Shown here one piece after another: positions 26,711 through 52,005 of a stretch of DNA of 64,000 nt. The stretch is from NCBI GenBank assembly GCA_005883615.1, contig VBEC01000014.1, positions 48,497-112,496 of the forward strand, written 5' to 3'. This DNA is from Chloroflexota bacterium. GTDB taxonomy: Bacteria; Chloroflexota; Limnocylindria; Limnocylindrales; CSP1-4. Made by a program: the position numbers and the translations under genes. A model generated the notes under the pieces. That model searched no databases and was not told the origin of the DNA. It saw only the letters and a program-made list of their open reading frames with translations. Every line of letters starts with the position of its first letter. Position 1 is the first letter of the stretch.

Positions 26711-26712
26711 GC

Positions 26713-27914: not shown

Positions 27915-27940
27915 ACGCCGCTCGGTTTGGCGCCTGAGCT

Positions 27941-30766: not shown

Positions 30767-32686
30767 ATGGTAGATTCGACGTGTCGGCCGCGCCGATCCT
30801 CCCCAATTCCTGCCCGTCAGACGACCCCAGAGAGGCTCGACCCGCTCGTGGCGCTCGACCCCTACCAGGAATTCCTCGTCCAGCCCGTCGACGCGTCCTG
30901 GCTCCAGTGCAACATTGAGTGCCAGGAAGCCTGCCCGGTCGGCACCAATTGCCGGGGCTACCTCAACCTCGCCGCCGAGGGCCGCTTCGAGGAGGGCTAC
31001 ATCCTCTCGCGCGAGCCCAACCCCGTGGCGGCGATGTGCTCCTACGTCTGCTCGGCTCCGTGCGAGCGCGCCTGCCGGCGGGGTGACATCGACCGGCCCC
31101 TGGCCATCCGCGCGATGAAGCGCTTCCTCGTGGAATGGCACGAGGCGTCCGGAATCCCCGACGTGATGCCCCAGATCACCCCACGCGAGGAGCGTGTCGC
31201 CGTCGTCGGTGCAGGACCAGCCGGTCTGTCGGTCGCTCGCGAGCTGGCCATGAAGGGCATACGAGTCACGGTTTTCGACAGCCTGCCCTACGGCGGTGGC
31301 ACGATGCTGATCGGGGTGCCCGCGTTCCGTCTCCCGCGGGAGGCGATCGAGATGGACGTCCGCCTGATCGAGCGCCTCGGCGTGACTTTCGTCTACAACA
31401 CGACGATCGGCGTGGACATCACCTTCGATCAGCTCCAGCGCGACTTCGATGCGGTCGCGATCACGGCGGGCGCGATGAACCCGGTCATCCTCGACGTCCC
31501 CGGCCACGAGCTCGACGGGGTGCAGTACGGCGTCGACTTCATGAAGATCGCCAACCTCGGCGAGCAGCTCACCGTGGGCAACGACGTGGTCGTGATCGGC
31601 GGTGGCTACACGGCCATGGACTGCTCGCGCACGAGCCTCCGTCACGGTGCGGAAAACGTCGCGATCGTCTACCGGCGCACGCGCTCGGAACTCGTCGTCG
31701 ACGAAGAGGAGCTTGGCGAGACCGAGCGCGAGGGCGTTCGGATGGAGTTCCTGGCCAGCCCGGTCGAGGTGCTCGGGGAGGACGGTCACGTCACGGGCGT
31801 CAGGTTCATCCGCAACAAGCTGGGCGAGCCAGATGCATCGGGCCGCCGCTCACCGATCCCCATCCCCGGCTCGGAGTTCATGATCAAGGCCGACAGCGTG
31901 ATCCCCGCTGTGTCCCAGGCGGCGGATCTGACGTTCCTGCCCGTCGAGGCGAATTTCGAGATCGGCCGCGGTCGCGTGCGCGTCGACCCGGCGACCTACG
32001 CGAGCAACGTGCGGGGTGTGTTCGCATGCGGCGACTTCGTGACCGGTCCGACCACCCTCATCGAGGCTGCCGGCCATGGCAAGAAGTGCGCCTATGCAAT
32101 CGATCGCTACCTTGCCGCACAGGGCGACGTGACAGTGGACGCGAACGTCAAGATCACCAGCTCGTGGCGCCATGACATGCCCGAGATGTACGACGTCCTG
32201 CCTCGCCAGCACATCCCCATGGCCCCGCTCGCCGCGCGCATGGCCTCGACAGACCCCGAGGTGAACTTCACGACACCCGTCGAGCTCGGCTACGACGCCA
32301 CTCAGGCCGTCGCCGAGTCGACCCGCTGTCTCATGTGCAACTTCAACATCTGGTTCGACCCCTTCCGCTGCGTGTTGTGCGGCGCGTGCGCCGACGTCTG
32401 TCCCGAAGGCGTCATCCATATGGTCGACGTCAACCAGCTCAAGACCGAGGGCCTGCTGCCCGAAATCGAGGAGGCGTACGGCTGGGAAAACGGGGCGGCC
32501 ATGATCCTCGACGAGGAGCGCTGCATCCGCTGCGCGTTGTGCGTCAAGCGTTGCCCGTTCGACGCCATTACGATGGAGCGGTTCGAGCTGCAGGAGGTCT
32601 CGACTGACGGCCGGCTCTACAAGGAGTCGTACCGTGATGCGCAACTCGCCGGCACGCCCGGCGTGGCAGGAGGAGCCGTTCGGTGA
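30767..32686 (+). CDS. GltD-like FAD/NAD(P)H-dependent oxidoreductase fused to a C-terminal 2x[4Fe-4S] ferredoxin domain
   Basis: N-terminal Cys cluster (CNIECQEACPVGTNC ... CSYVCSAPCERAC). FAD GxGxxG VAVVGAGPAGL and NAD(P) GxGxxA VVVIGGGYTAMD. C-terminal CLMCN ... CVLCGACADVCP and CIRCALCVKRCP. Start uncertain (ATG 30767 or GTG 30848). Its stop overlaps the GTG start of cytochrome b6 (GTGA). Confidence 0.75.
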   Translation: MVDSTCRPRRSSPIPARQTTPERLDPLVALDPYQEFLVQPVDASWLQCNIECQEACPVGTNCRGYLNLAAEGRFEEGYILSREPNPVAAMCSYVCSAPCERACRRGDIDRPLAIRAMKRFLVEWHEASGIPDVMPQITPREERVAVVGAGPAGLSVARELAMKGIRVTVFDSLPYGGGTMLIGVPAFRLPREAIEMDVRLIERLGVTFVYNTTIGVDITFDQLQRDFDAVAITAGAMNPVILDVPGHELDGVQYGVDFMKIANLGEQLTVGNDVVVIGGGYTAMDCSRTSLRHGAENVAIVYRRTRSELVVDEEELGETEREGVRMEFLASPVEVLGEDGHVTGVRFIRNKLGEPDASGRRSPIPIPGSEFMIKADSVIPAVSQAADLTFLPVEANFEIGRGRVRVDPATYASNVRGVFACGDFVTGPTTLIEAAGHGKKCAYAIDRYLAAQGDVTVDANVKITSSWRHDMPEMYDVLPRQHIPMAPLAARMASTDPEVNFTTPVELGYDATQAVAESTRCLMCNFNIWFDPFRCVLCGACADVCPEGVIHMVDVNQLKTEGLLPEIEEAYGWENGAAMILDEERCIRCALCVKRCPFDAITMERFELQEVSTDGRLYKESYRDAQLAGTPGVAGGAVR

Positions 32687-33411
32687 GTTTCCTCGAGCGG
32701 GTGGACAACGCCATCCGCCGAAGCTCCGCTTGGCGCTCGCTGTTCCGTCAGCCGTACCCCTCGGACGAGCGTTCCCGGGCGTATGCGGTGATGAACAACG
32801 TCTTCCTGCATATCCATCCCGTCCGGGTGCGGCAGCACGCGGTGAAATTCGCCTACACCTTCTGCCTCGGCGGGCTGTCGTTCTTCCTGTTCCTGGTGCT
32901 GACGGTGACCGGCGTCTACCTGATGTTCTTCTACATCCCGTCGACGACCCAGGCGTACAGCAACATCCTGGACATCCAGGCACATCAGCCCTTCGGCCTG
33001 CTCACGCGAAACGTCCATCGTTGGGCCGCGCACCTGATGGTGTTCTTCGTCTTCCTGCACATGATGCGTGTCTTCTACCACGGTGCCTACAAGCCGCCAC
33101 GCGAGTTCAACTGGGTCGTTGGGATCATCCTTCTCTTCACGACCATCTTGCTGAGCTTCACGGGCTACCTGCTGCCGTGGGACCAGATCGCCTACTGGGC
33201 GATCACCATCGGCACGAACTTCGCCACCTACGTGCCTGTCTTCAACACCCCGACCCAGATCCTGTTGCTCGGTGGCCTGGAGGTTGGCCAGAACACGCTC
33301 CTGCGGTTCTACGTGCTCCACATCATGGTCCTGCCCCTGGTCGCGGCGATCTTCCTGGCGGTCCACTTCTGGCGAATTAGAAAGGACGGGGGCATTAGCG
33401 GACCGCTATGA
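32683..33411 (+). CDS. petB: Cytochrome b6 (b6f-type, N-terminal haem-binding half of cytochrome b)
   Basis: Four TM helices with conserved His pairs (HIHPV, HRWAAHLMVFFVFLHMMRV, HIMVLP). 242 aa, the typical split-b length. Confidence 0.9.
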   Translation: MSFLERVDNAIRRSSAWRSLFRQPYPSDERSRAYAVMNNVFLHIHPVRVRQHAVKFAYTFCLGGLSFFLFLVLTVTGVYLMFFYIPSTTQAYSNILDIQAHQPFGLLTRNVHRWAAHLMVFFVFLHMMRVFYHGAYKPPREFNWVVGIILLFTTILLSFTGYLLPWDQIAYWAITIGTNFATYVPVFNTPTQILLLGGLEVGQNTLLRFYVLHIMVLPLVAAIFLAVHFWRIRKDGGISGPL

Positions 33412-33545
33412 CAGCCATCTGCCGCGTTGCCGCCGCCGCTCCTTACTCATGCAAACCTCGGGCCGATGGCTTCGCGGAGCTCAGCCTCGGACCTCGGTGG
33501 GCGAACGCCAGCTCGCCATTGAGGGTGCTTACTCGTGATTGATCG

Positions 33546-34148
33546 ATGACTGATACCAAGAAGCCGTCCGAGCGGCGCGTCGTGCTGCCCGTCGATCCGT
33601 CGCGGCGAACGGAGATCGACAAGCAGCGCGTGCCGATGTCGGCGCGGCCGTACCGGCTCCTGGCGCTGGTCAAGCAGGACGCCGTCGTCCGCGTCCAGAA
33701 AGAGCCGGACGACACCGTGATGACCTGGCCGCATCTCCTGTCGATCGAGTTTCTGGCCGCCGGCATGATGAGCATCTTCGTGCTGCTCTTGGGGCTGTTC
33801 GTCAACGCGCCCCTGGAAGCGCTGGCAAACGGCAACTTGACACCGGCGGTGGCCAAGGCACCGTGGTACTTCCTCGGCCTCCAGGAGCTCCTGGCGTACG
33901 TCCACCCAACCGTTGCGGGCGTTTTGACGCCCACGTTTGTATTCGTTGGCGGAATCCTGCTCCCCTACGTCGACCGCGAAAATATCGATGAGCATCGGCC
34001 GTCGAATCGCAAGACTGCGGTCATGCTCTTCACCCTGCTGCTCGGCATGGGCCTGGTCGTCACGTTCGTTGGCATCTTCTTCCGGGGCGCGGGGTACACC
34101 TTCGTGCTCCCGTACATCGACTCACCCGGCCTCCATTTCAACCTCTGA
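33546..34148 (+). CDS. petD: Cytochrome b6f complex subunit IV (cytochrome b C-terminal half)
   Basis: PEWY-like region (APWYFLGLQELLAYVHP) and 3 TM helices. Confidence 0.85.
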   Translation: MTDTKKPSERRVVLPVDPSRRTEIDKQRVPMSARPYRLLALVKQDAVVRVQKEPDDTVMTWPHLLSIEFLAAGMMSIFVLLLGLFVNAPLEALANGNLTPAVAKAPWYFLGLQELLAYVHPTVAGVLTPTFVFVGGILLPYVDRENIDEHRPSNRKTAVMLFTLLLGMGLVVTFVGIFFRGAGYTFVLPYIDSPGLHFNL

Positions 34149-34181
34149 CCGCAGTCCAACGGTCTCCCCGGAAGTTTCCTG

Positions 34182-34856
34182 ATGAGCAACTATCAAGTCG
34201 AGCCGGTCGACCAACCGAAGGCCCTGACGCGCGAAGCCATCAAGGCACTGCGCAACGAGCAGGTCCAGGGCCTGTCAAGACGTCAGATGCTGCGCCGGTC
34301 AGTGGGCGGCGCGGTCCTCCTGTGGCTCGGGGAGGTCAGCCTTGGTACGGTCGGCTTCCTGTGGCCGAACCTGAGCGGTGGATTCGGAGCGAAGGTCAAG
34401 ATCGGCACCTACAACGACATCAAGCTGGCCAACAGCAACCTGCCTATCAATGAGGGATTTCCGGCCTACTACCCGGAGGCGCGGGCATTCGTCATCCTGA
34501 TCGACCCCGCCCGCCAGGAGTTCATCCCCGGGACCGACACGACCGGCGACGGCCACCCGCTCAACGTGCGCGGCCTGTACCAGCGTTGCCCGCACCTGGG
34601 TTGCCGGCCGAACCCGTGCCTCAAGAACTTCTGGTTCGAGTGCCCCTGCCACGGGTCCCGCTACGACCGGCTCGGCATCAAGGCAGATGGTGCGCGCTTT
34701 GGCCCGGCGCCCCGGAGCATGGACCGATTCTCAGCCACGGTCGACAGCGGGGGCGTGCTGACGCTCGACACCGGCAAGATCACGAAGGGGCCACTGCCGG
34801 TCGCGCTCGGTCAGCCAGGATTGATCCCGCCCAAGTCTCCGACCGGGTGCATTTAG
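34182..34856 (+). CDS. petC: Rieske [2Fe-2S] iron-sulfur subunit
   Basis: Tat signal (SRRQMLRR) and Rieske boxes CPHLGC ... CPCHGS. Confidence 0.9.
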   Translation: MSNYQVEPVDQPKALTREAIKALRNEQVQGLSRRQMLRRSVGGAVLLWLGEVSLGTVGFLWPNLSGGFGAKVKIGTYNDIKLANSNLPINEGFPAYYPEARAFVILIDPARQEFIPGTDTTGDGHPLNVRGLYQRCPHLGCRPNPCLKNFWFECPCHGSRYDRLGIKADGARFGPAPRSMDRFSATVDSGGVLTLDTGKITKGPLPVALGQPGLIPPKSPTGCI

Positions 34857-34890
34857 TGCAGCGGACGGCCGACGTCACCCGAGGATCGGC

Positions 34891-35961
34891 ATGACCGACG
34901 AGTCCGGAGGCGGACCGGAGCAGCGTCTGCCCGTGCCCCGGCCGGAAGCGGTCCCGGCGCCGGCAGAGCGTTTCAGCGCGCCACCCTCGGCTCACGCATT
35001 CGAGCTGACACCGGAGCGGGCGGCGGGCATCGTCCGCCAGTCGGCCAGCGCTCGATCGGTCGGGCTCCTCGCCGTGCTCGTCGTGTCGCTCTTCGTGGCT
35101 ATTTACTACTTCTACGACCTCGGCGTTCCCGGCATCTCCGGCACCGCGCGTCTGGCCGCCGAGGCCAGCGCCCAGCAGGTGACAGCGGTCGAGAATGGCC
35201 ACAACATCTTCGAGGCCAACTGCGCGCGCTGCCACGGAGCCAATGGCGAAGGCGGGATCGGCCCGGTCCTCCACGATCAGACCAAGCTCTTCCAGCACCT
35301 GAACGCGACCTACATCGCGGCCGTCCTGCGCGAGGGGGGCCGGCTCGTGTGTGGCAATGCCAAGAGCCTGATGCCGGTCTGGTCGAATGAAGGCAACCCA
35401 CCGGGGCCACTCAACTACATCGAGATCCAGGACCTGATCGCATTCATTCGAGCCCCGCAGACGCAGACCTTCCTGGTTCGGGACCCGACCACCAATGAAC
35501 CCGTCAAGGACGCCACCGGCAAGGACGAAACCTTCAACGGCTGGCTGGATCCGAACTACAAGCCGGCCGCGGATGCCACCCCGTTCCCGGACTGCTGGCA
35601 GGATGCCTTCAAGAGCAGCAGTTCACCGTCCGCTTCGGGATCTCCGTCAGCCTCGGCCACGGCTGCAGCGTCGTCCGGGGGGACCACCCTCAAGGAGACC
35701 GCCCAAGGCGTGGCTTTCCAGCAGACAGAGCTGACCGCGCCGGCCGGCCAGGGCTTCGTGATCCAGTTCACCAACAACGATGCCGGGACGTCGCACAACA
35801 TCGAGATCAAGAGCCCCGATGGGTCGGACGCGTTCAAGGGCGAGATCTTCGCGGGCCCCGGCGAGCGGACCTACAACGTGCCGCCCCTCGCGGCCGGGAC
35901 ATACCCGTTCATGTGCACCGTGCATCCGACCACGATGACCGGCACCCTCACGGTCAAGTGA
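34891..35961 (+). CDS. Membrane-anchored monoheme cytochrome c fused to a C-terminal type-1 copper cupredoxin domain
   Basis: N-terminal TM, CxxCH (CARCHGANGEGG), Ala/Ser linker, then cupredoxin ligands H (SHNIEI), C and H (FMCTVHP) and M (TTMTG). Confidence 0.8.
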   Translation: MTDESGGGPEQRLPVPRPEAVPAPAERFSAPPSAHAFELTPERAAGIVRQSASARSVGLLAVLVVSLFVAIYYFYDLGVPGISGTARLAAEASAQQVTAVENGHNIFEANCARCHGANGEGGIGPVLHDQTKLFQHLNATYIAAVLREGGRLVCGNAKSLMPVWSNEGNPPGPLNYIEIQDLIAFIRAPQTQTFLVRDPTTNEPVKDATGKDETFNGWLDPNYKPAADATPFPDCWQDAFKSSSSPSASGSPSASATAAASSGGTTLKETAQGVAFQQTELTAPAGQGFVIQFTNNDAGTSHNIEIKSPDGSDAFKGEIFAGPGERTYNVPPLAAGTYPFMCTVHPTTMTGTLTVK

Positions 35962-36007
35962 GCACACGTCCGGCGCGCGGACGCGTTTGGCGACAGGTGG
36001 GAGGACG

Positions 36008-37477
36008 ATGACGGAGGCGCTCGGTCCGGGACACAGGCAGCGGGGTCGACCGGTCTTCGGCCTGCTCGACGCCGACGGCTGGGGCTGGGCATTCCTCAAA
36101 GCCTTCTTCTGGTTCATCGTGATCCTGTTCCTTCTGGGCTATCTACCCGACCGCGCGTACTACTTCACGGTCAATCCCACCATCGACCTCGGGATCAACG
36201 CCGTTTCGCCGGTGAACTTCTGCCCGCCCGAGAACGCTGGCCTCCCCTGTCCCGCCCCGCCCGGAGGGGTCCTGCCGTGGCAGTCCTCCCCGGCCCAGCT
36301 GAAGCTGCCCGAGGCACGCCGCGACGGAGCGGCGGTGCAGGTCGGCACCAACCTGCTGTACATCGGCGGCAGCGACGGCAAGGCCCCCAGCGCGAAGGTC
36401 TACGTGACGGACCTGTTCGGCGACGGCAACTATGCGCCGTGGCGCGCGGGGCCGGACCTGCCCGAACCGCGCACCAAGGCCGCCGCCGTCTTCTTCAGCG
36501 GCTCGATCTTCGTCGCCGGCGGCGACGACGCGTCGGGCAAGCCGACCACCACCATGTGGATCCTGACGCCAGACGCCCAGACCGGCAGCCTCGGAACCTG
36601 GAAGCCCGCCGCCGACACGACCGGCAAGAACGACCCGAAACTCGACCTGAAGCTGCTGGAGGCCCGCGACGGAGCCTCGCTGGCGGCGGCGGCGGACGGA
36701 TTGTTCCTGGTCGGCGGTCGTAACGCCTCGGGCCCCGTCAATACGGTCTGGAAGTCGACCATCGACACGAAAGGTGTCCTCCACGCCTGGCAGCCAACCA
36801 CCGCGGGAACCATGCCCGGCACTCGCGCGGACGGCCTGGCCTTCCTTAACGGGAACTTCCTGTACGTGTACGGCGGCGTGGACGGCGGCTCTCCCACCAC
36901 CGCGGTCTGGGTTGCCCAGGTCGGCAAGGACAAGGACGGCGCGAGCCAGCTGACCGCGTGGGCCAGCAACATCCAGTCCTTGCCGGCGGCGCGCACGAAC
37001 GCCTCGGGTTTCGTGGCCAACCAGGCTATCTACCTGGTCGGCGGCTCGGACGGCAGCAAGGCACATACCGAGCTCTACTGGGCGATCCCGAGCAGCAACG
37101 GGGCGATCACGGAGTGGAAGCATCTATCGAACTCCGATCTGCCCGCCGGCGGTCTCCTCGGGTCGGCGGCCGCGGTCAGCGGCAGTCACGCCTTCCTGAT
37201 CGGGGGCCAGTCGGGGAACGGCCTGACCGGCTCGACGCTGCGCACGAACCTGGCACCAAAGCCGCCCTTCTTCCAGCTCGGCCTCGTGGGTGCGACGGTG
37301 CCCGGGCTCAAGATCGAGGGCGACATCGGGCCGCAGCTGGGGCTCCTCGCGGCCGCCGGCGTGGGCACGGGCAACTTCGTCATCCTGCTGCTGATCGCCT
37401 ACCTGTTCGCACACAAGGCACAGGTTCGGGCGTGGTTCTACCGAATGCGAGAGCGTCGCCGCGCGCGAGAAACCTGA
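36008..37477 (+). CDS. Kelch-repeat (beta-propeller) membrane protein
   Basis: GGAGG RBS before the ATG at 36008. N-terminal TM, 5-6 Kelch-like repeats (LYIGGSDG, IFVAGGDD, LFLVGGRN, LYVYGGVDG, IYLVGGSDG, AFLIGGQSG) and a C-terminal TM. Located 47 nt after the cyt c-cupredoxin gene. Confidence 0.7.
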   Translation: MTEALGPGHRQRGRPVFGLLDADGWGWAFLKAFFWFIVILFLLGYLPDRAYYFTVNPTIDLGINAVSPVNFCPPENAGLPCPAPPGGVLPWQSSPAQLKLPEARRDGAAVQVGTNLLYIGGSDGKAPSAKVYVTDLFGDGNYAPWRAGPDLPEPRTKAAAVFFSGSIFVAGGDDASGKPTTTMWILTPDAQTGSLGTWKPAADTTGKNDPKLDLKLLEARDGASLAAAADGLFLVGGRNASGPVNTVWKSTIDTKGVLHAWQPTTAGTMPGTRADGLAFLNGNFLYVYGGVDGGSPTTAVWVAQVGKDKDGASQLTAWASNIQSLPAARTNASGFVANQAIYLVGGSDGSKAHTELYWAIPSSNGAITEWKHLSNSDLPAGGLLGSAAAVSGSHAFLIGGQSGNGLTGSTLRTNLAPKPPFFQLGLVGATVPGLKIEGDIGPQLGLLAAAGVGTGNFVILLLIAYLFAHKAQVRAWFYRMRERRRARET

Positions 37478-37480
37478 CGG

Positions 37481-37858
37481 TTAGCGGGCGGGGAGCTTGC
37501 CCTCGTCCGGAGCCGGTTGCCCATGCCGAACGGGCAGGCCCGCCTTCTGCCAGGCGATGATGCCGCCGACGACATTGACGGCGTCGTAGCCGCTTCGCAC
37601 AAGGTGCCCGGTCGCGGCCAGGGAGCGACTGCCCGCCGCGCACATGACGAGCAACGGCCGGTCCCGTGGCAGCTCGGCGAAGCGTTCCGCGAATTCGGAC
37701 ATCGGCAGCAGGACCGCGTCAGGCACACGCACGTCTTCGAATTCGTCACGCTCGCGCACGTCGAGGAGTAGCGGCCCCCGGCCTTGCGTGCCGGCGGCGC
37801 GACGGGCATCGGCTTCGATGACGCCGATGGACGGTAGCGGCGCGGCTGCCGGGTTCAT
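37481..37858 (-). CDS. Rhodanese-domain sulfurtransferase
   Basis: LLLDVRERDEF ... CAAGSRS active-site Cys loop. ATGA overlap with the upstream DUF309 gene. Confidence 0.8.
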   Translation of the reverse strand: MNPAAAPLPSIGVIEADARRAAGTQGRGPLLLDVRERDEFEDVRVPDAVLLPMSEFAERFAELPRDRPLLVMCAAGSRSLAATGHLVRSGYDAVNVVGGIIAWQKAGLPVRHGQPAPDEGKLPAR

Positions 37859-38253: not shown

Positions 38254-38327
38254 CGGCCGATAGGCCTTGGCACGGCCGTCCTGGAGAACCGTCCGGCGCG
38301 CACCACGAGTCGCGGCGACGTCCGAGG

Positions 38328-47110: not shown

Positions 47111-48202
47111 CTACTTGATCGTCAGTGTCCCCGTCATCGTCGGGTGGACGGAGCAGGTGAAGGGATACGCGCCCGCGGCGAGCGCGGGGACGTTGTAGAC
47201 GGTCGAAATGGGGCCGGTCACGATCTCGCCCTTGAACACATCCTTGCCGGAAGCGTCCTTGATGTCCACGTTGTGCATGGTGGCCTGGTCTTTGTTCTGG
47301 AAGGCGATCGTGAACGGCTTGCCGGCGGGACCGGCCACATCGGGCGTGGTGAACTGGGTTGCTTCGGCAACGATCGAGACATCGCCCTTTGGCGCCGGGG
47401 CGTTCGACGGAGCCGAACCCCCCGATCCACTACCCGGGCCGGCCGCAGCGCCGGGAGCCGGCGAGCCGGCCGCGGCGGTCGTGGAGGTCTTGGGCGGCAG
47501 CACCCCCGACTGGATGACGACTGCGGCGCCTACAAGGATCACGAAGAGCGCGAGCGTGCCCATCGGGAAGGCCGGCGCCGGCGGTGGCGGCTGATGCCCC
47601 CTCCGATCGGCCTCCTCTACCAGCCGATATTCGTGCCGCGCGTCGCGCAGCCAGCCGAGCAGCGAGATGGCGAGCGTGACGATCCCGACGAGCAGCAGCG
47701 CCGGCCCGAACACAAGCCCGAAGAAGATGATCGCCAGGGCGATCGAAGCAAGGATCGGCTGGAATGATGGCACCGGGGCGTGGACACCCGGTGGCGGCTC
47801 CTCGCGCACGACCACGAGCGCGGTGTCCCGCCCCAGGAGGTGGTCGTGCTCGCGCATCGCCTCGCGGCCCCAGTACAGCAACGCCAGGGCCATCCCGATC
47901 GCGGCCAGGGGAATGGCCATGCCACCCGCCACCAGAGCGAACAGGACGAGGAAGGTCGCGATCGCACCAAAGAACGGAGCAAACGACGGCACCGGTGGGT
48001 GAACGCCGGGCGGCGGGGCCGGCGTAAGGCGGGTGCGGCCGCGTCGCCGCGGACCTACGCGAGTGAACGACCAGCCCAGCCACAGTATGTAAAGGACGAC
48101 CAGGCCCAGGATGGCCAAGGGCAGCAGTGCGATCAGCGAGCCCCAGTCGGGGGTGATGATCTGCGAGAGGATGTTGAGGATCTGGTCCCAGACGGCCTGC
48201 AT
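47111..48202 (-). CDS. Polytopic membrane protein with internal tandem duplication and C-terminal type-1 copper cupredoxin domain
   Basis: Two repeats of a 2-TM unit containing PPGVH(P/A)PVPSF. Ala/Pro/Gly linker. Cupredoxin ligands H (TMHNVDI), C and H (FTCSVHP) and M (TMTG). Its C-terminus is paralogous to the tails at 35961 and 50672. Confidence 0.7.
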   Translation of the reverse strand: MQAVWDQILNILSQIITPDWGSLIALLPLAILGLVVLYILWLGWSFTRVGPRRRGRTRLTPAPPPGVHPPVPSFAPFFGAIATFLVLFALVAGGMAIPLAAIGMALALLYWGREAMREHDHLLGRDTALVVVREEPPPGVHAPVPSFQPILASIALAIIFFGLVFGPALLLVGIVTLAISLLGWLRDARHEYRLVEEADRRGHQPPPPAPAFPMGTLALFVILVGAAVVIQSGVLPPKTSTTAAAGSPAPGAAAGPGSGSGGSAPSNAPAPKGDVSIVAEATQFTTPDVAGPAGKPFTIAFQNKDQATMHNVDIKDASGKDVFKGEIVTGPISTVYNVPALAAGAYPFTCSVHPTMTGTLTIK

Positions 48203-48214
48203 CGGGCGGCTCGG

Positions 48215-48409
48215 TCAGTCCCGGGGCGAGCCGGAGATCAGGACGTAGGCCATCAGACCCATCGCGATGCCCAGCGCACCGAGCATCGTCACCCCGGCGT
48301 AGTCAAGCTGCCACTTGCCGAAGTAGGGGACGGCCCAATAGATCACGCCGATGACGACGAAGATCACTCCCACGAGGAAGGCGTTCCGAGGATGGCGCAG
48401 CGGATGCAT
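48215..48409 (-). CDS. Putative small cytochrome c oxidase subunit IV-like membrane protein
   Basis: 64 aa with two TM helices, directly downstream of ctaE. Start at the internal ATG (MHPLRHP) chosen to avoid overlapping ctaE. Confidence 0.35.
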   Translation of the reverse strand: MHPLRHPRNAFLVGVIFVVIGVIYWAVPYFGKWQLDYAGVTMLGALGIAMGLMAYVLISGSPRD

Positions 48410-48420
48410 GACGCCGCCCG

Positions 48421-49044
48421 CTACAGGATGTAGAGGGTCGAGAAGAGGGCAACCCACACCACGTCGACGAAGTGCCAGTACAGGGAGGTTGCTTCGACGG
48501 CATCGTGGTGGCGGGCGGTGAACTGCCCGGCCAGCGCCCGGTAGAGGATCACGCTGAGCATGATCGTGCCGCCCAGGACGTGGGCGCCGTGGAAGCCGGT
48601 CAGCGTGAAGAACGTGGTCCCGAAGGTGCCGTCGGTCAGCCCGAAGCCGAGCTGGCTGTAGTCATACGCCTGGCCGAGCAGGAAGGCGATCCCCAGCACG
48701 AGCGTGACCGCAATGCCGCGCACTAGTCCGCGCCGGTCGTCGCGGCGGATGGCCCAGATGCCGAGCTGGCACGTGAACGAGCTGGTGACAAGGATGACCG
48801 TGAGGATGGCGGCCTTCCAGGGGTCTTCATGGAGGTTGAAGTGCGGGTTGTCCGCCGGCGGCCACGGGCGCGTCGACGCGCGGACCGTGAAGTAGGCGCC
48901 AAAGAGCCCGGCGAAGAACATGACCTCGCTGGTGATGAACAGCAGCATCCCGAGGACGGGGTTGCTGATTCCACCGCGCTGGTCGTGCGCCAGCCCGGCG
49001 ACGAGGCTGTGCTCGGTGGTGAGTGCGTGAGAGTCGGCTGTCAC
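48421..49044 (-). CDS. ctaE: Cytochrome c oxidase subunit III
   Basis: Five TM helices with conserved GFHGAHV and YWHFVDVVW motifs. Confidence 0.9.
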   Translation of the reverse strand: MTADSHALTTEHSLVAGLAHDQRGGISNPVLGMLLFITSEVMFFAGLFGAYFTVRASTRPWPPADNPHFNLHEDPWKAAILTVILVTSSFTCQLGIWAIRRDDRRGLVRGIAVTLVLGIAFLLGQAYDYSQLGFGLTDGTFGTTFFTLTGFHGAHVLGGTIMLSVILYRALAGQFTARHHDAVEATSLYWHFVDVVWVALFSTLYIL

Positions 49045-50663
49045 GCGTGGTTACCGGCACGACCGTGACGCAAGTCGAACAGCGGACGCTCGGAGCGGAT
49101 CTCAGGAAGATGGTCGAAGTTGTAGGGCGGCGGCGGGGAGCTCGTGGCCCATTCGAGGGTGTTGGCCTCCCACGGATCGTCGCCCGCCGGCTCGCCGTTG
49201 CGGAGCGAGATCATCACGTTCCACAGGAACGGCAGCATGCTCGTGGCAATCGTGAAGCCGCCGATCGTCGCCAGCAGGTTCAGCTCGCTCCAGCCGGCGG
49301 CTGCGCTGTAGTCGGCCACCCGCCGGGGCATGCCCATCAGTCCCAGCATGTGCATCGGGAAGAAGGTCAGGTTGAAGCCCACGAACATGAGCACGAAATG
49401 GATCTTGCCCAGGGTTTCGTCGAGCAGCCGGCCGGTCATCTTGGGGAACCAGTAGTACAGGCCGGCGAACATTCCGAACACCGACCCGCCGAAGAGCACG
49501 TAGTGGAGATGGGCGACCACCCAGTACGTGTCATGCAGGGCGAAATCCACGGGAACGGCCGCGCTGAAGGCGCCGTTGATGCCCCCGATCAGGAACATGG
49601 TCAGGAAGCCCAACGCGAACAGCATCGGCGTGCTGAAGATCAGCTGGCCTCGGAACAGCGTCGCGACCCAGTTGAACATCTTGACGCCCGTCGGCACCGC
49701 GATGAGGAACGTCATCAGTGAGAAGAACGGCAGGAACACCGAACCCGTCGTGAACATGTGGTGGGCCCACACGGAGAAGCCCAGGGCACCGATGCCCGCG
49801 GTGGCGAACACGAACGCCTTGTACCCGAACAGTGGCTTGCGCGAGAACACGGGCAGGATCTCGCTGACCATACCCATCGCGGGCAGGACCATGACGTACA
49901 CCGCGGGGTGCGAGTAGAACCAGAACACGTTCTGCCAGAGGATGGCGTTGCCGCCGGTGGCCGGATCGAAGAAGTGGCCGCCGTAGTTGCGGTCGATGAA
50001 CAGCATGATCAAGGCGCTGGTGAACACGGGCGTGGCCATCAGCACGAGCACACTCGTGACGAGGACTGTCCAGACGAGGATCGGCAGCCGGAACATGGTC
50101 AGTCCCGGAGCGCGCATCTTGAAGATGGTGGTCAGGAAGTTGACCGCCCCCAGGATGGAACTCGTCCCGATGAGGATCAGGCCCACTGCCCAGAGGTCGG
50201 TGCCCGTGCCGGAATAGGCGCGTTGGGCCAGCGGGCTGTAGCCCGTCCAGCCCTCGGCCGCCGCGCCGCCCGTGAAGAAGCCGGTGAACATCAGGATGCC
50301 GCCCAACGGCAGCATCCAGAAGGACAGCGCATTGATGCGCGGGAAGGCCATGTCCGGGGCGCCGATCTGGAGGGGGACGACGTAGTTTGCGAAGCCGGCC
50401 AGGATGGGGATGATGAACAGGAAGATCATCACAGTCCCGTGCATCGTGAACAGCTGGTTGTAGACGTCCGGGGCGAAGAACTGGATCTTCGGCTGAGCGA
50501 GTTCGGCGCGCACGCCGAGCGCCAGGAGCCCCGCCAGGAAGAAGAACAGCAACGAGTTGACGACGTACAGGATGCCGATCTTCTTGTGGTCGGTCGTCGT
50601 GATCCACTCGTACAGCCCGCTCCGGTAGGCGGGGACGGCGGGGTGTAGCGCAGTCGTCGCCAT
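49041..50663 (-). CDS. ctaD: Cytochrome c oxidase subunit I (haem-copper oxidase, aa3 type)
   Basis: TTDHKKIG, the full set of haem a / CuB His ligands (WAHHMF, HHMFT etc.) and a GGAG RBS 8 nt before the ATG at 50663. The track ORF N-extension to 50720 was rejected. Confidence 0.95.
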   Translation of the reverse strand: MATTALHPAVPAYRSGLYEWITTTDHKKIGILYVVNSLLFFFLAGLLALGVRAELAQPKIQFFAPDVYNQLFTMHGTVMIFLFIIPILAGFANYVVPLQIGAPDMAFPRINALSFWMLPLGGILMFTGFFTGGAAAEGWTGYSPLAQRAYSGTGTDLWAVGLILIGTSSILGAVNFLTTIFKMRAPGLTMFRLPILVWTVLVTSVLVLMATPVFTSALIMLFIDRNYGGHFFDPATGGNAILWQNVFWFYSHPAVYVMVLPAMGMVSEILPVFSRKPLFGYKAFVFATAGIGALGFSVWAHHMFTTGSVFLPFFSLMTFLIAVPTGVKMFNWVATLFRGQLIFSTPMLFALGFLTMFLIGGINGAFSAAVPVDFALHDTYWVVAHLHYVLFGGSVFGMFAGLYYWFPKMTGRLLDETLGKIHFVLMFVGFNLTFFPMHMLGLMGMPRRVADYSAAAGWSELNLLATIGGFTIATSMLPFLWNVMISLRNGEPAGDDPWEANTLEWATSSPPPPYNFDHLPEIRSERPLFDLRHGRAGNHA

Positions 50664-50671
50664 GCTGCTCC

Positions 50672-51820
50672 TTACCTGACGGTCAGCGTTCCGATCATGG
50701 TCGTGGGATGCACCTTGCAAACGAAGCTGTATTTGCCGGCAGGCAGGGGATTGACCGCGTAAAGCCGCGAGTCGGGACCGGTGATGACCTCACCGTCGAA
50801 GACCACCGCGCCGGTCGGCGAGTCCTTGTGGATGTCGACGTTGTGCTGGGTCGCCTGGTCGGCGTTGGTGAATTTGATGTCGAAGGGCTGGTTGGCGGGT
50901 GCCTCGAGGCTGTCCTTGTCGAAGGCCACGTTCTTGGCGGTCAGATCGAGCGTGACCTGAGCGCTCGGCGGCCCGCTCGCGGTGACCGAGCTGGCGCCCG
51001 GCGAGCCACTCGGCGATGGCGCGCCGCTGGCCGCCGGTGCGGGCGTGGCCTTCGCCTGCGTGATCTGCTGCTGAAGCCAGGCGTCGAATTCCGTCGGCGT
51101 CTTGGCCTGCACCTCGAACGACATGCCCTGGTGACCGATCCCGCACAGCTCCGCGCATTGGCCACGGAAGGTCTGGCCGGCGTCGGTCGCGTCGACCATG
51201 AAGTCGAACGTGTTCTCCTTGCCCGGAACCACGTCGCGCTTGAACAGGAATTGAGGGACGTAGAAGGCATGGATCACGTCGGGGCTGTGCAGCGACAGGT
51301 GAACGGTCTGGCCGGCCGGGACGACCATCGTGCCGGGCAACGAGACCGCCTTGCCGTCGGGACCCCTGATCAGGGACTGCCCATCCGGGCCGAGGTACTG
51401 GAAGCTCCAATCGAACCGCCGTGCGATCGCCACCACGTGGACCTGTGGGTTGGGCGAGGTGGCCTCGACGGTGTTGAGCGTCTGCCATGAGATGACGAAT
51501 AGGTAGGCGACGATGACCGTCGGGATGATCGTCCAGATGATCTCGATCAGGTTGTTCCCGTGGATCTGCGGCGGCAGCTCCGTGTCGGTGGGGTGCCGTC
51601 GATAGCGGATGACCGCATAGACGATAAGGCCCTCGACGACGAAGAAGATCGCCGCGGCGATCAGGAACACGATGTCGTACAGGTTCCTGATGTCGTGGCC
51701 CTGCGCCGTGGCCGCCTTGGGCGGATAGAAGCTGTCGATCACGGAGCAACCTGTGACGGCGGCGGCGACGCCCGCGAGCGCGAGCACCCGCGCGAGGCGC
51801 GTCGGCGTCGTCCGGAACAT
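50672..51820 (-). CDS. ctaC: Cytochrome c oxidase subunit II (CuA) with extra C-terminal cupredoxin (type-1 Cu) domain
   Basis: Lipoprotein signal (AAAVTGCS), two TM helices, CuA site H ... CAELCGIGHQGM, then Ala/Ser/Pro linker and a cupredoxin with H (TQHNVDI), C and H (FVCKVHP) and M (TTMIG). Confidence 0.9.
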   Translation of the reverse strand: MFRTTPTRLARVLALAGVAAAVTGCSVIDSFYPPKAATAQGHDIRNLYDIVFLIAAAIFFVVEGLIVYAVIRYRRHPTDTELPPQIHGNNLIEIIWTIIPTVIVAYLFVISWQTLNTVEATSPNPQVHVVAIARRFDWSFQYLGPDGQSLIRGPDGKAVSLPGTMVVPAGQTVHLSLHSPDVIHAFYVPQFLFKRDVVPGKENTFDFMVDATDAGQTFRGQCAELCGIGHQGMSFEVQAKTPTEFDAWLQQQITQAKATPAPAASGAPSPSGSPGASSVTASGPPSAQVTLDLTAKNVAFDKDSLEAPANQPFDIKFTNADQATQHNVDIHKDSPTGAVVFDGEVITGPDSRLYAVNPLPAGKYSFVCKVHPTTMIGTLTVR

Positions 51821-52005
51821 CGGCAAGGGTGTCTCCGAAGTCGATCGGTCAGCGGTCGCGGTCAGCGCCCGGGACGAGACGCGACCGGCGGAGTCGGCAA
51901 CGTGGCCCGACCTCGGCCGGACCGCTCCAATCATACCCGCAGACTTCGGGCATGTGTCGGGTGCCGGCCGGCCGCCCGAGGGTGCCGATCGTCATTCGGG
52001 GCACA

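What the first reader, a model, noticed from the sequence alone, without database searches (positions are those of the whole stretch)
30767..37477. b6f-type Rieske/cytochrome b complex operon with a translationally coupled NAD(P)H-flavoprotein/FeS subunit
A GltD-like FAD/NAD(P)H oxidoreductase has an N-terminal Cys cluster and two C-terminal 4Fe-4S ferredoxin motifs. It ends in TGA overlapping the GTG start of cytochrome b6 (GTGA). It is followed by subunit IV, a Tat-dependent Rieske protein, a cytochrome c-cupredoxin fusion and a Kelch membrane protein, all on one strand with short gaps. A pyridine-nucleotide-linked flavoprotein encoded as part of a bc-type complex operon is reminiscent of the unusual Rieske/cyt b complexes of anammox bacteria, which are proposed to couple quinol oxidation to NAD(P)+ reduction or to bifurcate electrons. 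Its presence beside an aa3 oxidase in a high-GC aerobe-like genome is not a textbook arrangement. It could be a quinol:NAD(P)+ or NAD(P)H:cupredoxin module.
Basis: partly seen in the sequence, partly recalled or inferred. Interest (0 to 1): 0.85.

Follow-up and report, generated by a model that had tools for sequence, protein, structure and literature searches.

The report
Respiratory bc complex with NADPH flavoprotein
This aerobic Chloroflexota bacterium encodes a b6-type Rieske/cytochrome b complex whose first, translationally coupled gene is an NADP(H)-binding iron-sulfur flavoprotein; the same kind of complex is already known from anammox bacteria and occurs in many phyla, but nobody has yet shown what the flavoprotein does.

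Summary
Six same-strand genes encode a GltD/NfnB-like FAD/NADP(H) protein with four [4Fe-4S] motifs, cytochrome b6, subunit IV, a Tat-dependent Rieske protein, a cytochrome c-cupredoxin fusion and a Kelch membrane protein. The flavoprotein's TGA overlaps the cytochrome b6 GTG. The flavoprotein more likely starts at 30848 than 30767.

The linkage is not chance. I found it in Limnocylindria, Acidobacteriota, Ignavibacteriota, Eisenbacteria, Nitrospinota and anammox Scalindua, in three different gene orders. The window's flavoprotein is 41% identical to the Scalindua "NAD(P) oxidoreductase". All linked complexes share the APWY quinol-site motif and an N-terminal cytochrome b motif with an invariant His43. 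A common sister clade carries only the two-cluster ferredoxin module upstream of cytochrome b6.

The association is already published (Kartal 2013; Dibrova 2013, 2017; Hauser 2025), so this is a new member of a known, biochemically uncharacterised kind.

My best reading is that the flavoprotein is a cytoplasmic-side subunit wiring NADP(H) to the low-potential haems. That it is a subunit: about 0.85. The direction is unresolved: quinol-driven NADP+ reduction about 0.4, NADPH feeding the quinone-reduction site about 0.3.

The parts
30848..32686 (+). Flavoprotein (FP), 612 aa. It has an N-terminal two-[4Fe-4S] domain (Fer4_20), FAD and NADP(H) Rossmann domains (VYRRTR motif) and a C-terminal 2x[4Fe-4S] ferredoxin domain. 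No TM helix. An alternative upstream ATG lies at 30767.
   Evidence: Pfam. PDB sequence hits NfnA 9n5u, 9bov, StnC 8oh5_C and NfnB 4ylf_B. AF2 core pLDDT is above 90, and Foldseek top hits are StnC, NfnABC and NfnI. Start choice. No TM helix.
32668..32686 (+). Translational-coupling junction. The Shine-Dalgarno-like AGGAGGAG (32668-32675) lies inside the FP 3' end, and the GTGA (32683-32686) carries both the cytochrome b6 start and the FP stop.
   Evidence: Sequence read. The same 4-nt overlap occurs in L001, in Nitrospinota L082, and as an FP/Rieske overlap in L083.
32683..33411 (+). Cytochrome b6, 242 aa. It has four invariant His haem ligands (H112, H126, H213, H228) and the haem cn motif C61-L-G-G. 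A roughly 58-residue N-terminal extension carries WRSLFR and NNVFLH43IHP. The C-terminus is GISGPL.
   Evidence: Pfam. PDB b6 hits at E 2.6e-51, aligning only from residue 59. Alignments.
33546..34148 (+). Subunit IV, 200 aa, with three predicted TM helices. The quinol-oxidation (Qo) motif is AKAPWYFLGLQE (APWY type). The WPHLLSIEF motif has a Glu at the position of spinach subunit IV Phe40, which faces haem cn.
   Evidence: Pfam. Motifs. TM prediction.
34182..34856 (+). Rieske [2Fe-2S] protein with the Tat motif SRRQMLRR and the cluster boxes CPHLGC and CPCHGSRY. The S-Y signature predicts a high midpoint potential.
   Evidence: Pfam. Motifs. S-Y rule from PMC4122944.
34891..35961 (+). Membrane-anchored monohaem cytochrome c (CARCH) fused to a type-1 cupredoxin domain. 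It is the presumed high-potential acceptor of the Rieske protein.
   Evidence: Pfam. TM helix. Cupredoxin paralogy. Clade L003/L004 has a dihaem cytochrome c instead.
35987..37477 (+). Kelch beta-propeller protein with N- and C-terminal TM helices. It is co-oriented with the operon and conserved only in the closest relatives. Its role is unknown.
   Evidence: Pfam. Present in L001 and L002, not detected in L003 or L004. TM helices.
47111..51826 (-). Context: the aa3-type oxidase. CoxII-cupredoxin fusion at 50672-51826, CoxI at 49041-50720, CoxIII at 48421-49044, an 80-aa ORF at 48215-48457, and a polytopic membrane protein with a C-terminal cupredoxin at 47111-48202. This is the likely electron sink for the bc operon.
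   Evidence: Pfam. The cupredoxin domains are 51-54% identical to the one in the bc operon.

Best explanation
The operon encodes a menaquinol-oxidising, b6-type Rieske/cytochrome b complex of the 'APWY'/subfamily-G kind. Its first gene product, the flavoprotein (FP), has no membrane helix. It most likely docks on the cytoplasmic (N) side of the cytochrome b6 dimer through its C-terminal two-cluster ferredoxin domain.

That would give a wire running NADP(H) - FAD - four [4Fe-4S] clusters - (possibly an extra haem held by His43 of the two b6 copies) - haem cn/bN - haem bP - Qo site.

The proposed working direction is as follows. Quinol is oxidised at the Qo site. One electron falls to the high-potential Rieske cluster, then to cytochrome c-cupredoxin, the aa3 oxidase and O2. 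That fall pays for pushing the second electron through the b haems and the FeS wire onto NADP+. Complex III would then act as a respiration-driven quinol:NADP+ reductase, the mechanism proposed for the anammox complexes.

What is shown: gene content, cofactor motifs, translational coupling, conserved linkage and homology to the anammox subunits. What is inferred: physical attachment, the cofactor path and the direction.

That FP is a subunit of the complex: about 0.85. That the direction is NADP+ reduction: about 0.4, which is the confidence given here.
For: 1. The FP stop overlaps the cytochrome b6 start, with a strong Shine-Dalgarno sequence. No terminator lies between the genes.

2. FP is as conserved as cytochrome b6 itself. 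Against L001/L002 the identities are FP 89-92%, cytochrome b6 86%, subunit IV 76-78%, Rieske 66-73% and cytochrome c-cupredoxin 45-56%.

3. FP is linked to Rieske/cytochrome b/subunit IV genes in 9 of 81 GltD-like loci from the genome scan. All nine carry the FP architecture, from Chloroflexota, Acidobacteriota, Eisenbacteria and Ignavibacteriota. The linkage also occurs in Nitrospinota and Acidobacteriia, in an unnamed MAG whose contig ends after FP-Rieske, and in two Scalindua loci. The gene orders differ: FP-b, FP-Rieske-b and b-FP.

4. Among the 80 closest metagenomic cytochrome b relatives, 66 have an informative upstream region. Of these, 9-11 have FP and 38-43 have only the two-cluster ferredoxin module directly upstream. 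This points to the ferredoxin domain as the docking module.

5. FP-linked cytochrome b proteins share an N-terminal extension with an invariant His43. It is absent from spinach b6, and PDB b6 sequences align only from residue 59. His43 of Kuste4571 is the predicted ligand of an extra interfacial haem in AlphaFold3 models (PMC12954380).

6. All subunits of the Kuenenia complex co-migrate, as cited in PMC12954380.

7. For direction: the Rieske signature S-Y predicts a potential above 260 mV. The Glu at the haem cn face is typical of low-potential, menaquinone-type haem cn. This is the same combination argued to permit NAD(P)+ reduction in anammox bacteria.

8. The closest solved relatives of FP are the NADP(H)-binding bifurcating subunits StnC, NfnABC-NfnA and NfnB.
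Against: - No biochemical data exist for any APWY-type complex (PMC4122944).
- My own estimate of the energetics is marginal. It uses literature midpoint values and no tool result. The gain is about 374 mV (menaquinol to a +300 mV Rieske). The cost is about 246 mV (to NADP+) plus the membrane potential the electron must cross.
- The host looks like an organoheterotroph with sugar ABC transporters. It has no obvious need for reverse electron flow.
- The haem cn motif and the neighbouring His and Glu are kept. That fits a working quinone-reduction site, which would compete for the electron.
- The ferredoxin-only sister clade has no NAD(P) site at all.
- Proteins of the same architecture also occur alone or beside other enzymes.
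- The pool quinone of this organism is not known.
- The AF2 model of the C-terminal ferredoxin domain has low confidence, and no multimer model could be run.
Confidence: 0.4

Rival explanations
1. The architecture is the same, with FP bound on the N side, but electrons run the opposite way. NADPH reduces FAD, and the electrons pass down the four clusters to haem cn/bN. There they reduce menaquinone at the quinone-reduction (Qn) site. The complex would then be a built-in, non-pumping NADPH:menaquinone reductase that feeds its own Q cycle. It would resemble the ferredoxin/FNR-to-haem-cn route proposed for cyclic electron flow in chloroplast b6f.
For: - The reaction is strongly downhill (about -320 to -74 mV), so no special energetics are needed.
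- Haem cn (CLGG), its Glu and a nearby His are conserved, as expected for proton-coupled quinone reduction (discussed).
- The abundant sister clade has only a two-cluster ferredoxin upstream of cytochrome b6. That is easiest to read as an entry port for cytoplasmic reductant.
- The host is an aerobic heterotroph.
- FP has the NADPH-type VYRR motif.
Against: - Hauser et al. judge this route wasteful where proton-pumping NADH dehydrogenases exist.
- It does not explain the predicted high-potential S-Y Rieske paired with a menaquinone-type haem cn.
- It does not explain the universal loss of the Qo-site carboxylate in the APWY motif.
- Several FP-linked lineages have lost the haem cn cysteine.
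Confidence: 0.3
2. FP is bound to the complex but acts as a reversible valve or redox sensor rather than as a main catalytic route. It would equilibrate the low-potential b haems with the NADP(H) pool. It would drain electrons when the quinone pool is over-reduced, which limits semiquinone and superoxide formation in an aerobe, and supply them when the pool is oxidised.
For: - The energetics are near equilibrium in the outward direction (my estimate).
- The lifestyle is aerobic, and peroxiredoxin genes flank the respiratory loci at 27399-27914 and 46582-47049.
- FP-type modules in Nfn and Stn enzymes work reversibly (structures).
Against: - There is no direct evidence for this role.
- FP is very highly conserved (85-93% across more than 120 clusters) and its expression is coupled stoichiometrically to cytochrome b6. 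Both suggest a core catalytic role.
- This reading is hard to separate from the two directional models by sequence alone.
Confidence: 0.15
3. FP is an independent soluble NADPH:ferredoxin or NADPH:acceptor oxidoreductase, a GltD/SudA-like paralogue. It would be co-transcribed with the bc genes without being part of the complex.
For: - The same architecture occurs unlinked to any cytochrome b: L005 and L017 stand alone, L045 lies beside a 2-oxoacid:ferredoxin oxidoreductase, L087 stands alone, and L088 lies beside a xanthine-dehydrogenase-type enzyme.
- FP has no membrane helix.
- No FP-cytochrome b or FP-Rieske fusion protein was found.
Against: - Adjacency is conserved over at least six phyla and three gene orders.
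- Start/stop overlaps recur with cytochrome b or Rieske.
- FP-linked cytochrome b proteins carry a specific conserved N-terminal extension.
- All subunits co-migrate in Kuenenia.
- The ferredoxin module alone is retained upstream of cytochrome b6 in the sister clade.
Confidence: 0.07

Closest known systems
Anammox Rieske/cytochrome b complexes with an NAD(P) oxidoreductase subunit (Kuenenia Kuste4569-4574 and Kustd1480-1485; Scalindua homologs in L085 and L086)
   Same: - The flavoprotein is homologous: 41% identity, E 8e-155, with the same Fer4_20 + FAD/NADP + 2xFer4 layout and the YRR motif.
- Cytochrome b6 is split from subunit IV and carries the haem cn C-x-G-G motif.
- The WRSxFR and FLH(I/L)HP N-terminal motifs, including His43, are shared.
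- The APWY Qo motif and the Glu at the haem cn face are shared.
- The Rieske protein has the Ser after CPCHG.
   Different: - The host is an aerobic heterotroph-like Chloroflexota with an aa3 oxidase.
- The high-potential partner is a monohaem cytochrome c-cupredoxin fusion, not a hexa- or octahaem cytochrome c or an HAO-like protein.
- Subunit IV has three, not five, TM helices.
- The gene order is FP-b6-IV-Rieske, and a Kelch membrane protein is appended.
'APWY clade' of cytochrome b (Kao & Hunte 2014), equivalent to 'subfamily G' (Dibrova et al. 2013, 2017)
   Same: The Qo motif A-P-W-Y is invariant in the window and in every FP-linked locus examined. Chloroflexi are listed among the clade members. 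Co-occurrence with large NAD(P)-binding FeS proteins has been noted for subfamily G.
   Different: Those papers rest on phylogeny alone, and no member has been characterised. Neither the Limnocylindria version with cupredoxin and Kelch genes nor the ferredoxin-only sister operons appears in the parts I read.
Cyanobacterial/chloroplast cytochrome b6f
   Same: Cytochrome b6 aligns over residues 59-242 at E 2.6e-51, down to the GISGPL C-terminus. It shares haem cn, a split subunit IV and a cupredoxin (plastocyanin-like) acceptor. FNR/ferredoxin interaction with the N side of b6f is a long-standing proposal (my knowledge).
   Different: - There is no cytochrome f and no small Pet subunits.
- The Qo motif is APWY, not PEWY.
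- Glu replaces Phe at the haem cn face.
- Cytochrome b6 has a 58-residue N-terminal extension.
- The flavoprotein is encoded in the operon and is NfnB-like, not FNR-like.
NfnB / NfnABC-NfnA / StnC / GltD family of NADP(H)-FAD-[4Fe-4S] proteins
   Same: These are the best sequence and structure matches: 9n5u_A at 3.7e-104, 8oh5_C, and 4ylf_B at 1.9e-83, with Foldseek TM-scores of 0.61-0.70 (normalised to the query) for the best-matching chain of each of these proteins. The N-terminal two-cluster domain and both Rossmann domains are shared.
   Different: No NfnA (FAD/[2Fe-2S]), GltB or HydB-like partner is encoded nearby. The partner is instead a membrane cytochrome b6. Whether the FAD bifurcates here is unknown.

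Membership tests
b6-type Rieske/cytochrome b complex | Four-helix cytochrome b6 with four His ligands for haems bP and bN | tested here: met
   Cytochrome_B Pfam hit at 2.7e-45. H112, H126, H213 and H228 are invariant in the alignment of eight FP-linked cytochromes b. PDB b6 hits at E 2.6e-51.
b6-type Rieske/cytochrome b complex | Separate subunit IV gene carrying the Qo-site motif | tested here: met
   Cytochrom_B_C Pfam hit. Three predicted TM helices. The motif is AKAPWYF, which is APWY rather than PEWY.
b6-type Rieske/cytochrome b complex | Haem cn attachment motif CxGG in helix A | tested here: met
   C61-L-G-G in the window and in L001-L004; CMGG in Scalindua. The cysteine is absent in the Acidobacteriota, Ignavibacteriota and Eisenbacteria versions.
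b6-type Rieske/cytochrome b complex | Rieske 2Fe-2S boxes CxH...CxxH with Tat export | tested here: met
   CPHLGC and CPCHGSRY, with SRRQMLRR.
b6-type Rieske/cytochrome b complex | Cytochrome f as the high-potential subunit (b6f sensu stricto) | tested here: not met
   The subunit is a monohaem class-I-type cytochrome c fused to a cupredoxin. This is therefore not a b6f complex in the strict sense.
APWY clade / subfamily G cytochrome bc complexes | Qo motif A-P-W-Y | tested here: met
   Present in the window and in all 14 linked loci checked. The clade is defined in PMC4122944.
APWY clade / subfamily G cytochrome bc complexes | Placement inside the clade in a cytochrome b phylogeny | not tested
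   I built no cytochrome b tree with reference members. Membership is inferred from the motif and from shared features with the Scalindua, Nitrospinota and Acidobacteriota sequences.
Rieske/cytochrome b complexes with an NAD(P) oxidoreductase subunit (anammox type) | Flavoprotein homologous to the anammox NAD(P) oxidoreductase subunit and encoded with the Rieske/cytochrome b genes | tested here: met
   41% identity over 578 aa, E 8e-155, to P0408 'NAD(P) oxidoreductase [Ca. Scalindua rubra]'. P0408 lies between cytochrome b and the subunit IV-like gene in L085.
Rieske/cytochrome b complexes with an NAD(P) oxidoreductase subunit (anammox type) | Conserved N-terminal His of cytochrome b, proposed as the ligand of an extra interfacial haem b | tested here: met
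   The FLH43IHP His is invariant in all 14 FP-linked cytochromes b aligned. Haem binding itself cannot be tested here.
Rieske/cytochrome b complexes with an NAD(P) oxidoreductase subunit (anammox type) | Multihaem (hexa- or octahaem) cytochrome c and/or HAO-like subunit; five-helix subunit IV | tested here: not met
   The window has one CxxCH plus a cupredoxin and a three-TM subunit IV. It is therefore a different variant of the kind, not an orthologous copy of the anammox operons.
Rieske/cytochrome b complexes with an NAD(P) oxidoreductase subunit (anammox type) | Physical association of FP with the membrane complex, and NAD(P)-linked activity | not testable with these tools
   The only support is literature on Kuenenia co-migration. 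No multimer prediction was available.
NfnB/GltD-like NADP(H)-dependent FAD/FeS oxidoreductases | Fer4_20 two-cluster domain plus FAD and NAD(P) Rossmann domains | tested here: met
   Pfam. PDB sequence hits. AF2 core pLDDT above 90 with Foldseek matches to NfnI, NfnABC, Stn, GltD and DPD.
NfnB/GltD-like NADP(H)-dependent FAD/FeS oxidoreductases | Partner subunit that defines the enzyme (NfnA, GltB, or the DPD FMN domain) | tested here: not met
   None is encoded within the neighbourhood or fused to the protein. FP is therefore not Nfn, glutamate synthase or DPD.

The most novel reading that the evidence does not exclude
APWY-type b6 complexes as a class may have a cytoplasmic iron-sulfur 'port' on the low-potential haem chain. 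The port would be a bare two-cluster ferredoxin in one abundant clade and the same module fused to an NADP(H) flavoprotein in others. In widespread aerobic soil and freshwater bacteria such as Limnocylindria, complex III would use this port to make NADPH directly from quinol, by Qo-site bifurcation paid for by O2 reduction. This would be a respiration-driven, pmf-independent route to biosynthetic reductant, possibly involving a fourth, inter-monomer haem bound by His43.
Probability: 0.3. Interest if true: 0.8.

Novelty: new member of a known kind. Interest (0 to 1): 0.55.

Why it matters
No Rieske/cytochrome b complex with a cytoplasmic NAD(P)-linked flavoprotein has been characterised. Whether a Q-cycle enzyme can divert its low-potential electron to NADP+, or take NADPH in at the haem cn side, is still open. 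The question is currently argued only for slow-growing anammox bacteria.

This window and its relatives show the same core in aerobes, with a simple cytochrome c or cupredoxin outlet next to an aa3 oxidase. The core comprises the FP, the b6 N-terminal His motif, APWY, and (in the Limnocylindria and anammox versions) haem cn. Similar complexes occur in lineages that have cultured members, such as Acidobacteriota, Chloracidobacterium and Ignavibacteriota. These give more tractable systems and a cleaner thermodynamic setting for testing the idea.

The ferredoxin-only sister operons suggest which module docks to cytochrome b6. They also bear on the old question of what haem cn is for.

Tried and rejected
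- **Over-diverse alignment.** A 61-sequence FP alignment was too diverse for the locus scan. A 13-sequence one worked.
- **Row limit in the genome scan.** Only 9 of 81 were informative for linkage, so frequencies from it are a sample, not a census.
- **Fusion search.** I looked for natural FP-cytochrome b or FP-Rieske fusions among long homologs and found none. The extensions were response-regulator, 2Fe-2S, TPP or unannotated domains.
- **Linked-only signature.** I looked for a sequence signature present only in cytochrome b-linked FPs, in the C-terminal region, and saw none. The split I did find (YRR type against LES type with an insertion) cuts across linked and unlinked proteins.
- **Phylogeny.** The NJ tree of FP homologs is star-like. 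It cannot say whether the FP-bc association arose once or several times.
- **Structure prediction.** AF2 of FP gave a confident core but a low-confidence ferredoxin domain (pLDDT below 50 for most of residues 498-612), so I took no geometry from it. Multimer modelling was not possible.
- **Literature.** A search for Limnocylindria respiratory chains returned nothing relevant. Dibrova 2013 (PMC3839093) is not held. The Nitrospina genome paper does not discuss the flavoprotein in the passages shown.
- **Promoter and terminator scan.** No promoter-like sites were found, and the terminator-like sites lie only inside coding sequence. This is uninformative for a 68% GC Chloroflexota genome.

Full report
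**What is in the window**

The window is about 68% GC.

- **Flavoprotein (FP).** It has Fer4_20, Pyr_redox_2 and two ferredoxin-type CxxCxxCxxxCP motifs.
- **Cytochrome b6,** 242 aa.
- **Subunit IV,** 200 aa.
- **Rieske protein** with a twin-arginine signal.
- **Cytochrome c-cupredoxin.** A membrane-anchored monohaem cytochrome c fused to a type-1 cupredoxin.
- **Kelch propeller protein** with a TM helix at each end.

The FP stop codon and the b6 GTG start share GTGA at 32683-32686. AGGAGGAG lies 7 nt upstream of the start. The other gaps are 25-34 nt, except 134 nt before subunit IV. No terminator-like hairpin lies in any gap.

FP most likely starts at GTG 30848, giving 612 aa, rather than at ATG 30767. 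Most of the listed homologs are 610-612 aa, and alignments begin there.

**Genomic context**

The upstream neighbour is a divergent 641-aa low-complexity protein. Downstream lie rhodanese, DUF309 and DUF2203 genes on the other strand.

An aa3-type oxidase lies 11 kb away on the minus strand, with its CtaG assembly factor next to it on the plus strand. Its CoxII carries a C-terminal cupredoxin. The rest of the window encodes sugar and solute ABC transporters and regulators, which suggests an aerobic organoheterotroph.

**Organism and conservation**

The closest FP homologs number more than 120 clusters at 85-93% identity. The few that carry a source name are labelled Candidatus Limnocylindrales/Limnocylindria, Chloroflexota or (probably mislabelled) Dormibacteraeota.

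In a library clustered at 50% identity there is a jump from 83% to at most 49% identity. The clade is therefore tight and strongly constrained.

In two relatives with long contigs (L001, L002) the six genes are in the same order with the same 4-nt overlap. FP is at least as conserved as cytochrome b6:

| Protein | Identity to the window (%) |
|---|---|
| FP | 89-92 |
| Cytochrome b6 | 86 |
| Subunit IV | 76-78 |
| Rieske | 66-73 |
| Cytochrome c-cupredoxin | 45-56 |
| Kelch | 48-53 |

A second Limnocylindria clade (L003, L004; FP 53% identical) keeps FP-b6-IV-Rieske. It has a dihaem cytochrome c and no Kelch gene.

**Is the linkage more than local synteny?**

Yes. A scan of one genome per species returned 80 GltD-like loci.

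- Together with L001 (fetched), 9 of 81 loci carry cytochrome b, subunit IV and Rieske next to the FP-type protein. They come from Chloroflexota, Chloracidobacterium, other Acidobacteriota, Eisenbacteria and Ignavibacteriota.
- Look-ups of further homologs added a Nitrospinota locus, where the FP stop overlaps a fused cytochrome b start. They also added an Acidobacteriia locus, where the FP stop overlaps the Rieske start, and an unnamed MAG whose contig ends after FP-Rieske.
- A profile of the window's nearest non-Limnocylindria relatives recovered 'NAD(P) oxidoreductase [Ca. Scalindua rubra]' and a Scalinduaceae protein. Both sit inside Rieske/cytochrome b/multihaem operons of the anammox type.
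- The window FP is 41% identical to the Scalindua protein over 578 residues, E 8e-155.

The gene order differs between lineages (FP-b, FP-Rieske-b, b-FP). Conserved neighbourhood by descent alone therefore does not explain the pattern.

Proteins of the same architecture also occur without any cytochrome b. Some stand alone, one lies beside a 2-oxoacid:ferredoxin oxidoreductase, and one lies beside a xanthine-dehydrogenase-type enzyme. A crude tree does not resolve how many times the association arose.

**Shared sequence features of FP-linked complexes**

- **Qo motif.** Every linked subunit IV or fused cytochrome b has AKAPWYFL(G/W)LQE. This is the 'APWY' quinol-oxidation motif. [quoted passage not shown]
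- **Cytochrome b N-terminus.** Every linked cytochrome b has an N-terminal extension with W(R/K)SxFR and N-x-F-L-H. The His (H43 in the window) is invariant in all 14 sequences aligned. Spinach b6, taken from memory, has no counterpart, and PDB b6 sequences align only from residue 59.
- **Possible extra haem.** Hauser et al. (2025) predicted with AlphaFold3 that His43 of the two Kuste4571 copies binds an extra haem b. It would sit on the dimer axis between haem cn/bN and the first FeS cluster of the NAD(P) reductase (PMC12954380). The window has the corresponding residue.
- **Haem cn face.** A Glu lies at the position facing haem cn (spinach subunit IV Phe40) in all linked complexes. In the window it is preceded by WPH.

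**Two subtypes**

| Feature | Limnocylindria and Scalindua | Acidobacteriota, Ignavibacteriota, Eisenbacteria, Nitrospinota, Chloracidobacterium |
|---|---|---|
| FP motif in the NAD(P) domain | VYRR (NADPH type) | V(C/S)LES |
| Insertion in the NAD(P) domain | none | about 20-55 residues |
| Haem cn cysteine in cytochrome b | present, C(L/M)GG | absent |

The window therefore belongs to the same subtype as the anammox complexes.

It differs from them on the positive side, with a monohaem c-cupredoxin instead of hexa- or octahaem and HAO-like proteins. It also has a three-helix rather than a five-helix subunit IV.

**The reverse question: what accompanies cytochromes b of this kind?**

I fetched the 80 closest metagenomic relatives of the window's b6, at 51-88% identity. 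Sixty-six have informative upstream sequence.

- 9-11 have FP directly upstream.
- 38-43 have only a roughly 138-aa protein directly upstream. It matches just the C-terminal two-cluster ferredoxin domain of FP.
- 12 have neither.

One ferredoxin-only operon (L099) reads small membrane protein - 2x[4Fe-4S] ferredoxin - b6 - subunit IV - Rieske - dihaem cytochrome c. Its b6 has CLGG, LYHLHP and GISGPL. Its subunit IV has VWPHLL..E and SKAPWYF. Its Rieske protein has CPCHGSKY.

From this I infer that the ferredoxin module is the part that meets cytochrome b6. The NADP(H)-flavin part would be an add-on present in some lineages.

One cytochrome b6 copy that is 87% identical (L091) has no FP, subunit IV or Rieske nearby.

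**What FP is**

By sequence, its best solved relatives are NfnA of NfnABC (9n5u, 3.7e-104), 9bov, StnC (8oh5_C) and NfnB (4ylf_B, 1.9e-83), followed by GltD and DPD.

An AF2 model has a confident core, with pLDDT above 90 for residues about 100-420, but a poorly predicted ferredoxin domain. Foldseek ranks the same proteins first.

In all of these, NADP(H) binds at the FAD, and [4Fe-4S] clusters carry single electrons to or from it. No NfnA, GltB or other usual partner is encoded nearby. FP has no TM helix.

**How it most likely works**

- **Shown:** the cofactor motifs, the coupling, the conserved linkage and the homology to the anammox subunits.
- **From the literature:** all subunits of the Kuenenia complex co-migrate (cited). 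Dibrova et al. noted that subfamily-G cytochromes b co-occur with such oxidoreductases 'in many other cases'.
- **Inferred:** FP sits on the cytoplasmic face of the b6 dimer. It links NADP(H) through FAD and four clusters to haem cn/bN, perhaps through a haem bound by His43.

I put the claim that FP is a subunit of the complex at about 0.85.

Direction is the open point.

*For quinol-driven NADP+ reduction:*
- The Rieske signature after CxCH is S-Y, which predicts a potential above 260 mV.
- The Glu-faced haem cn is the low-potential, menaquinone type.
- This is the pairing that Hauser et al. argue would push haem bP low enough to reduce NAD(P)+.
- APWY also removes the usual Qo-site carboxylate.

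*Against it:*
- My own estimate leaves little margin. It uses literature midpoint potentials and is not a tool result. The gain is about 374 mV. The cost is about 246 mV plus the membrane potential.
- The host looks heterotrophic.
- The haem cn site looks intact.
- The ferredoxin-only relatives have no NAD(P) site at all.

The opposite flow, from NADPH to haem cn to menaquinone, is thermodynamically easy and resembles the proposed ferredoxin/FNR route into chloroplast b6f. It does not explain the Rieske or APWY features.

My estimates are 0.4 for NADP+ reduction, 0.3 for NADPH oxidation, 0.15 for a reversible valve, and 0.07 for an unattached enzyme.

**Comparison with what is known, and novelty**

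The window is a member of the APWY/subfamily-G Rieske/cytochrome b complexes that carry an NAD(P)-linked flavoprotein. The kind has been recognised since Kartal et al. and Dibrova et al., and was modelled in 2025 for Kuenenia.

New relative to the papers I could read are four points:
- a Limnocylindria version in an aerobe, with a cytochrome c-cupredoxin outlet and a Kelch protein;
- conservation of the b6 His43 motif across six phyla;
- the two FP/cytochrome b subtypes;
- the abundant ferredoxin-only sister operons.

I rate it a new member of a known kind. Interest is moderate to high, because the kind is uncharacterised and aerobic carriers could make the mechanism testable.

**Limits**

- I ran no multimer model and no whole-genome context.
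- The pool quinone is unknown.
- I built no cytochrome b phylogeny with reference sequences.

Noticed in passing
window 34891-35961 (+), 50672-51826 (-), 47111-48202 (-): Three paralogous type-1 cupredoxin domains, 51-54% identical, are C-terminal fusions. They sit on the bc-operon cytochrome c, on CoxII of the aa3 oxidase (CuA motif intact), and on a polytopic membrane protein next to the oxidase genes. This suggests a tethered copper relay between complexes III and IV.
   Followed up: partly
L098-L160 (e.g. L099:5056-10647): An abundant sister clade, with cytochrome b6 about 60% identical to the window's, has operons reading small TM protein - 138-aa 2x[4Fe-4S] ferredoxin - b6 (CLGG, His motif) - subunit IV (APWY) - Rieske - dihaem cytochrome c. 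It keeps only the ferredoxin module of the flavoprotein. It accounts for 38-43 of 66 informative metagenomic loci. GC is 66-72% in L099, and the taxon is unknown.
   Followed up: partly
L091:5034-5777: A cytochrome b6 copy 87% identical to the window's sits in a 11.8-kb locus with no flavoprotein, subunit IV or Rieske gene nearby. It is an orphan paralogue in a different context.
   Followed up: no
L008, L009, L020, L028, L069, L082, L083 (flavoprotein and cytochrome b genes): A second flavoprotein subtype has a roughly 20-55-residue insertion in the NAD(P) domain and V(C/S)LES in place of VYRR, which may mean a different nucleotide preference. It always pairs with a cytochrome b that has lost the haem cn cysteine. 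It occurs in Acidobacteriota, Ignavibacteriota, Eisenbacteria, Nitrospinota and Chloracidobacterium.
   Followed up: partly
L045:7917-12708; L088:7001-14089: Proteins with the same Fer4_20 + FAD/NADP + 2xFer4 architecture lie next to a 2-oxoacid:ferredoxin oxidoreductase in an Alphaproteobacteria MAG. Another lies next to a xanthine-dehydrogenase-type molybdoenzyme. The module is therefore reused as an NAD(P) adaptor for other redox enzymes.
   Followed up: no
window 28753-30678 (-): A divergently oriented 641-aa protein with an N-terminal TM helix and Ala/Arg-rich low-complexity or coiled-coil sequence has no Pfam match. A 617-aa gene with no Pfam match occupies the same position in L001.
   Followed up: no
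window 37481-38828 (-); 26671-28717 (+): The flanking genes are also syntenic with L001. They are rhodanese, DUF309 and DUF2203 downstream, and thiamin pyrophosphokinase, peroxiredoxin and PIG-L upstream. The whole neighbourhood, not only the operon, is conserved in the close relative.
   Followed up: no
window 33412-33545: The gap between cytochrome b6 and subunit IV is 134 nt here, 45 nt in L001 and about 93 nt in L002. I did not check it for a small ORF. It is the only place in the operon where an internal promoter or processing site could lie.
   Followed up: no
L084:1-6894: In one MAG the flavoprotein-Rieske pair follows molybdopterin, 4Fe-4S and NrfD genes (ACIII/Psr-like) and a cytochrome c on the same strand. 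This may be a hybrid quinone-interacting module. The contig ends before any cytochrome b.
   Followed up: no
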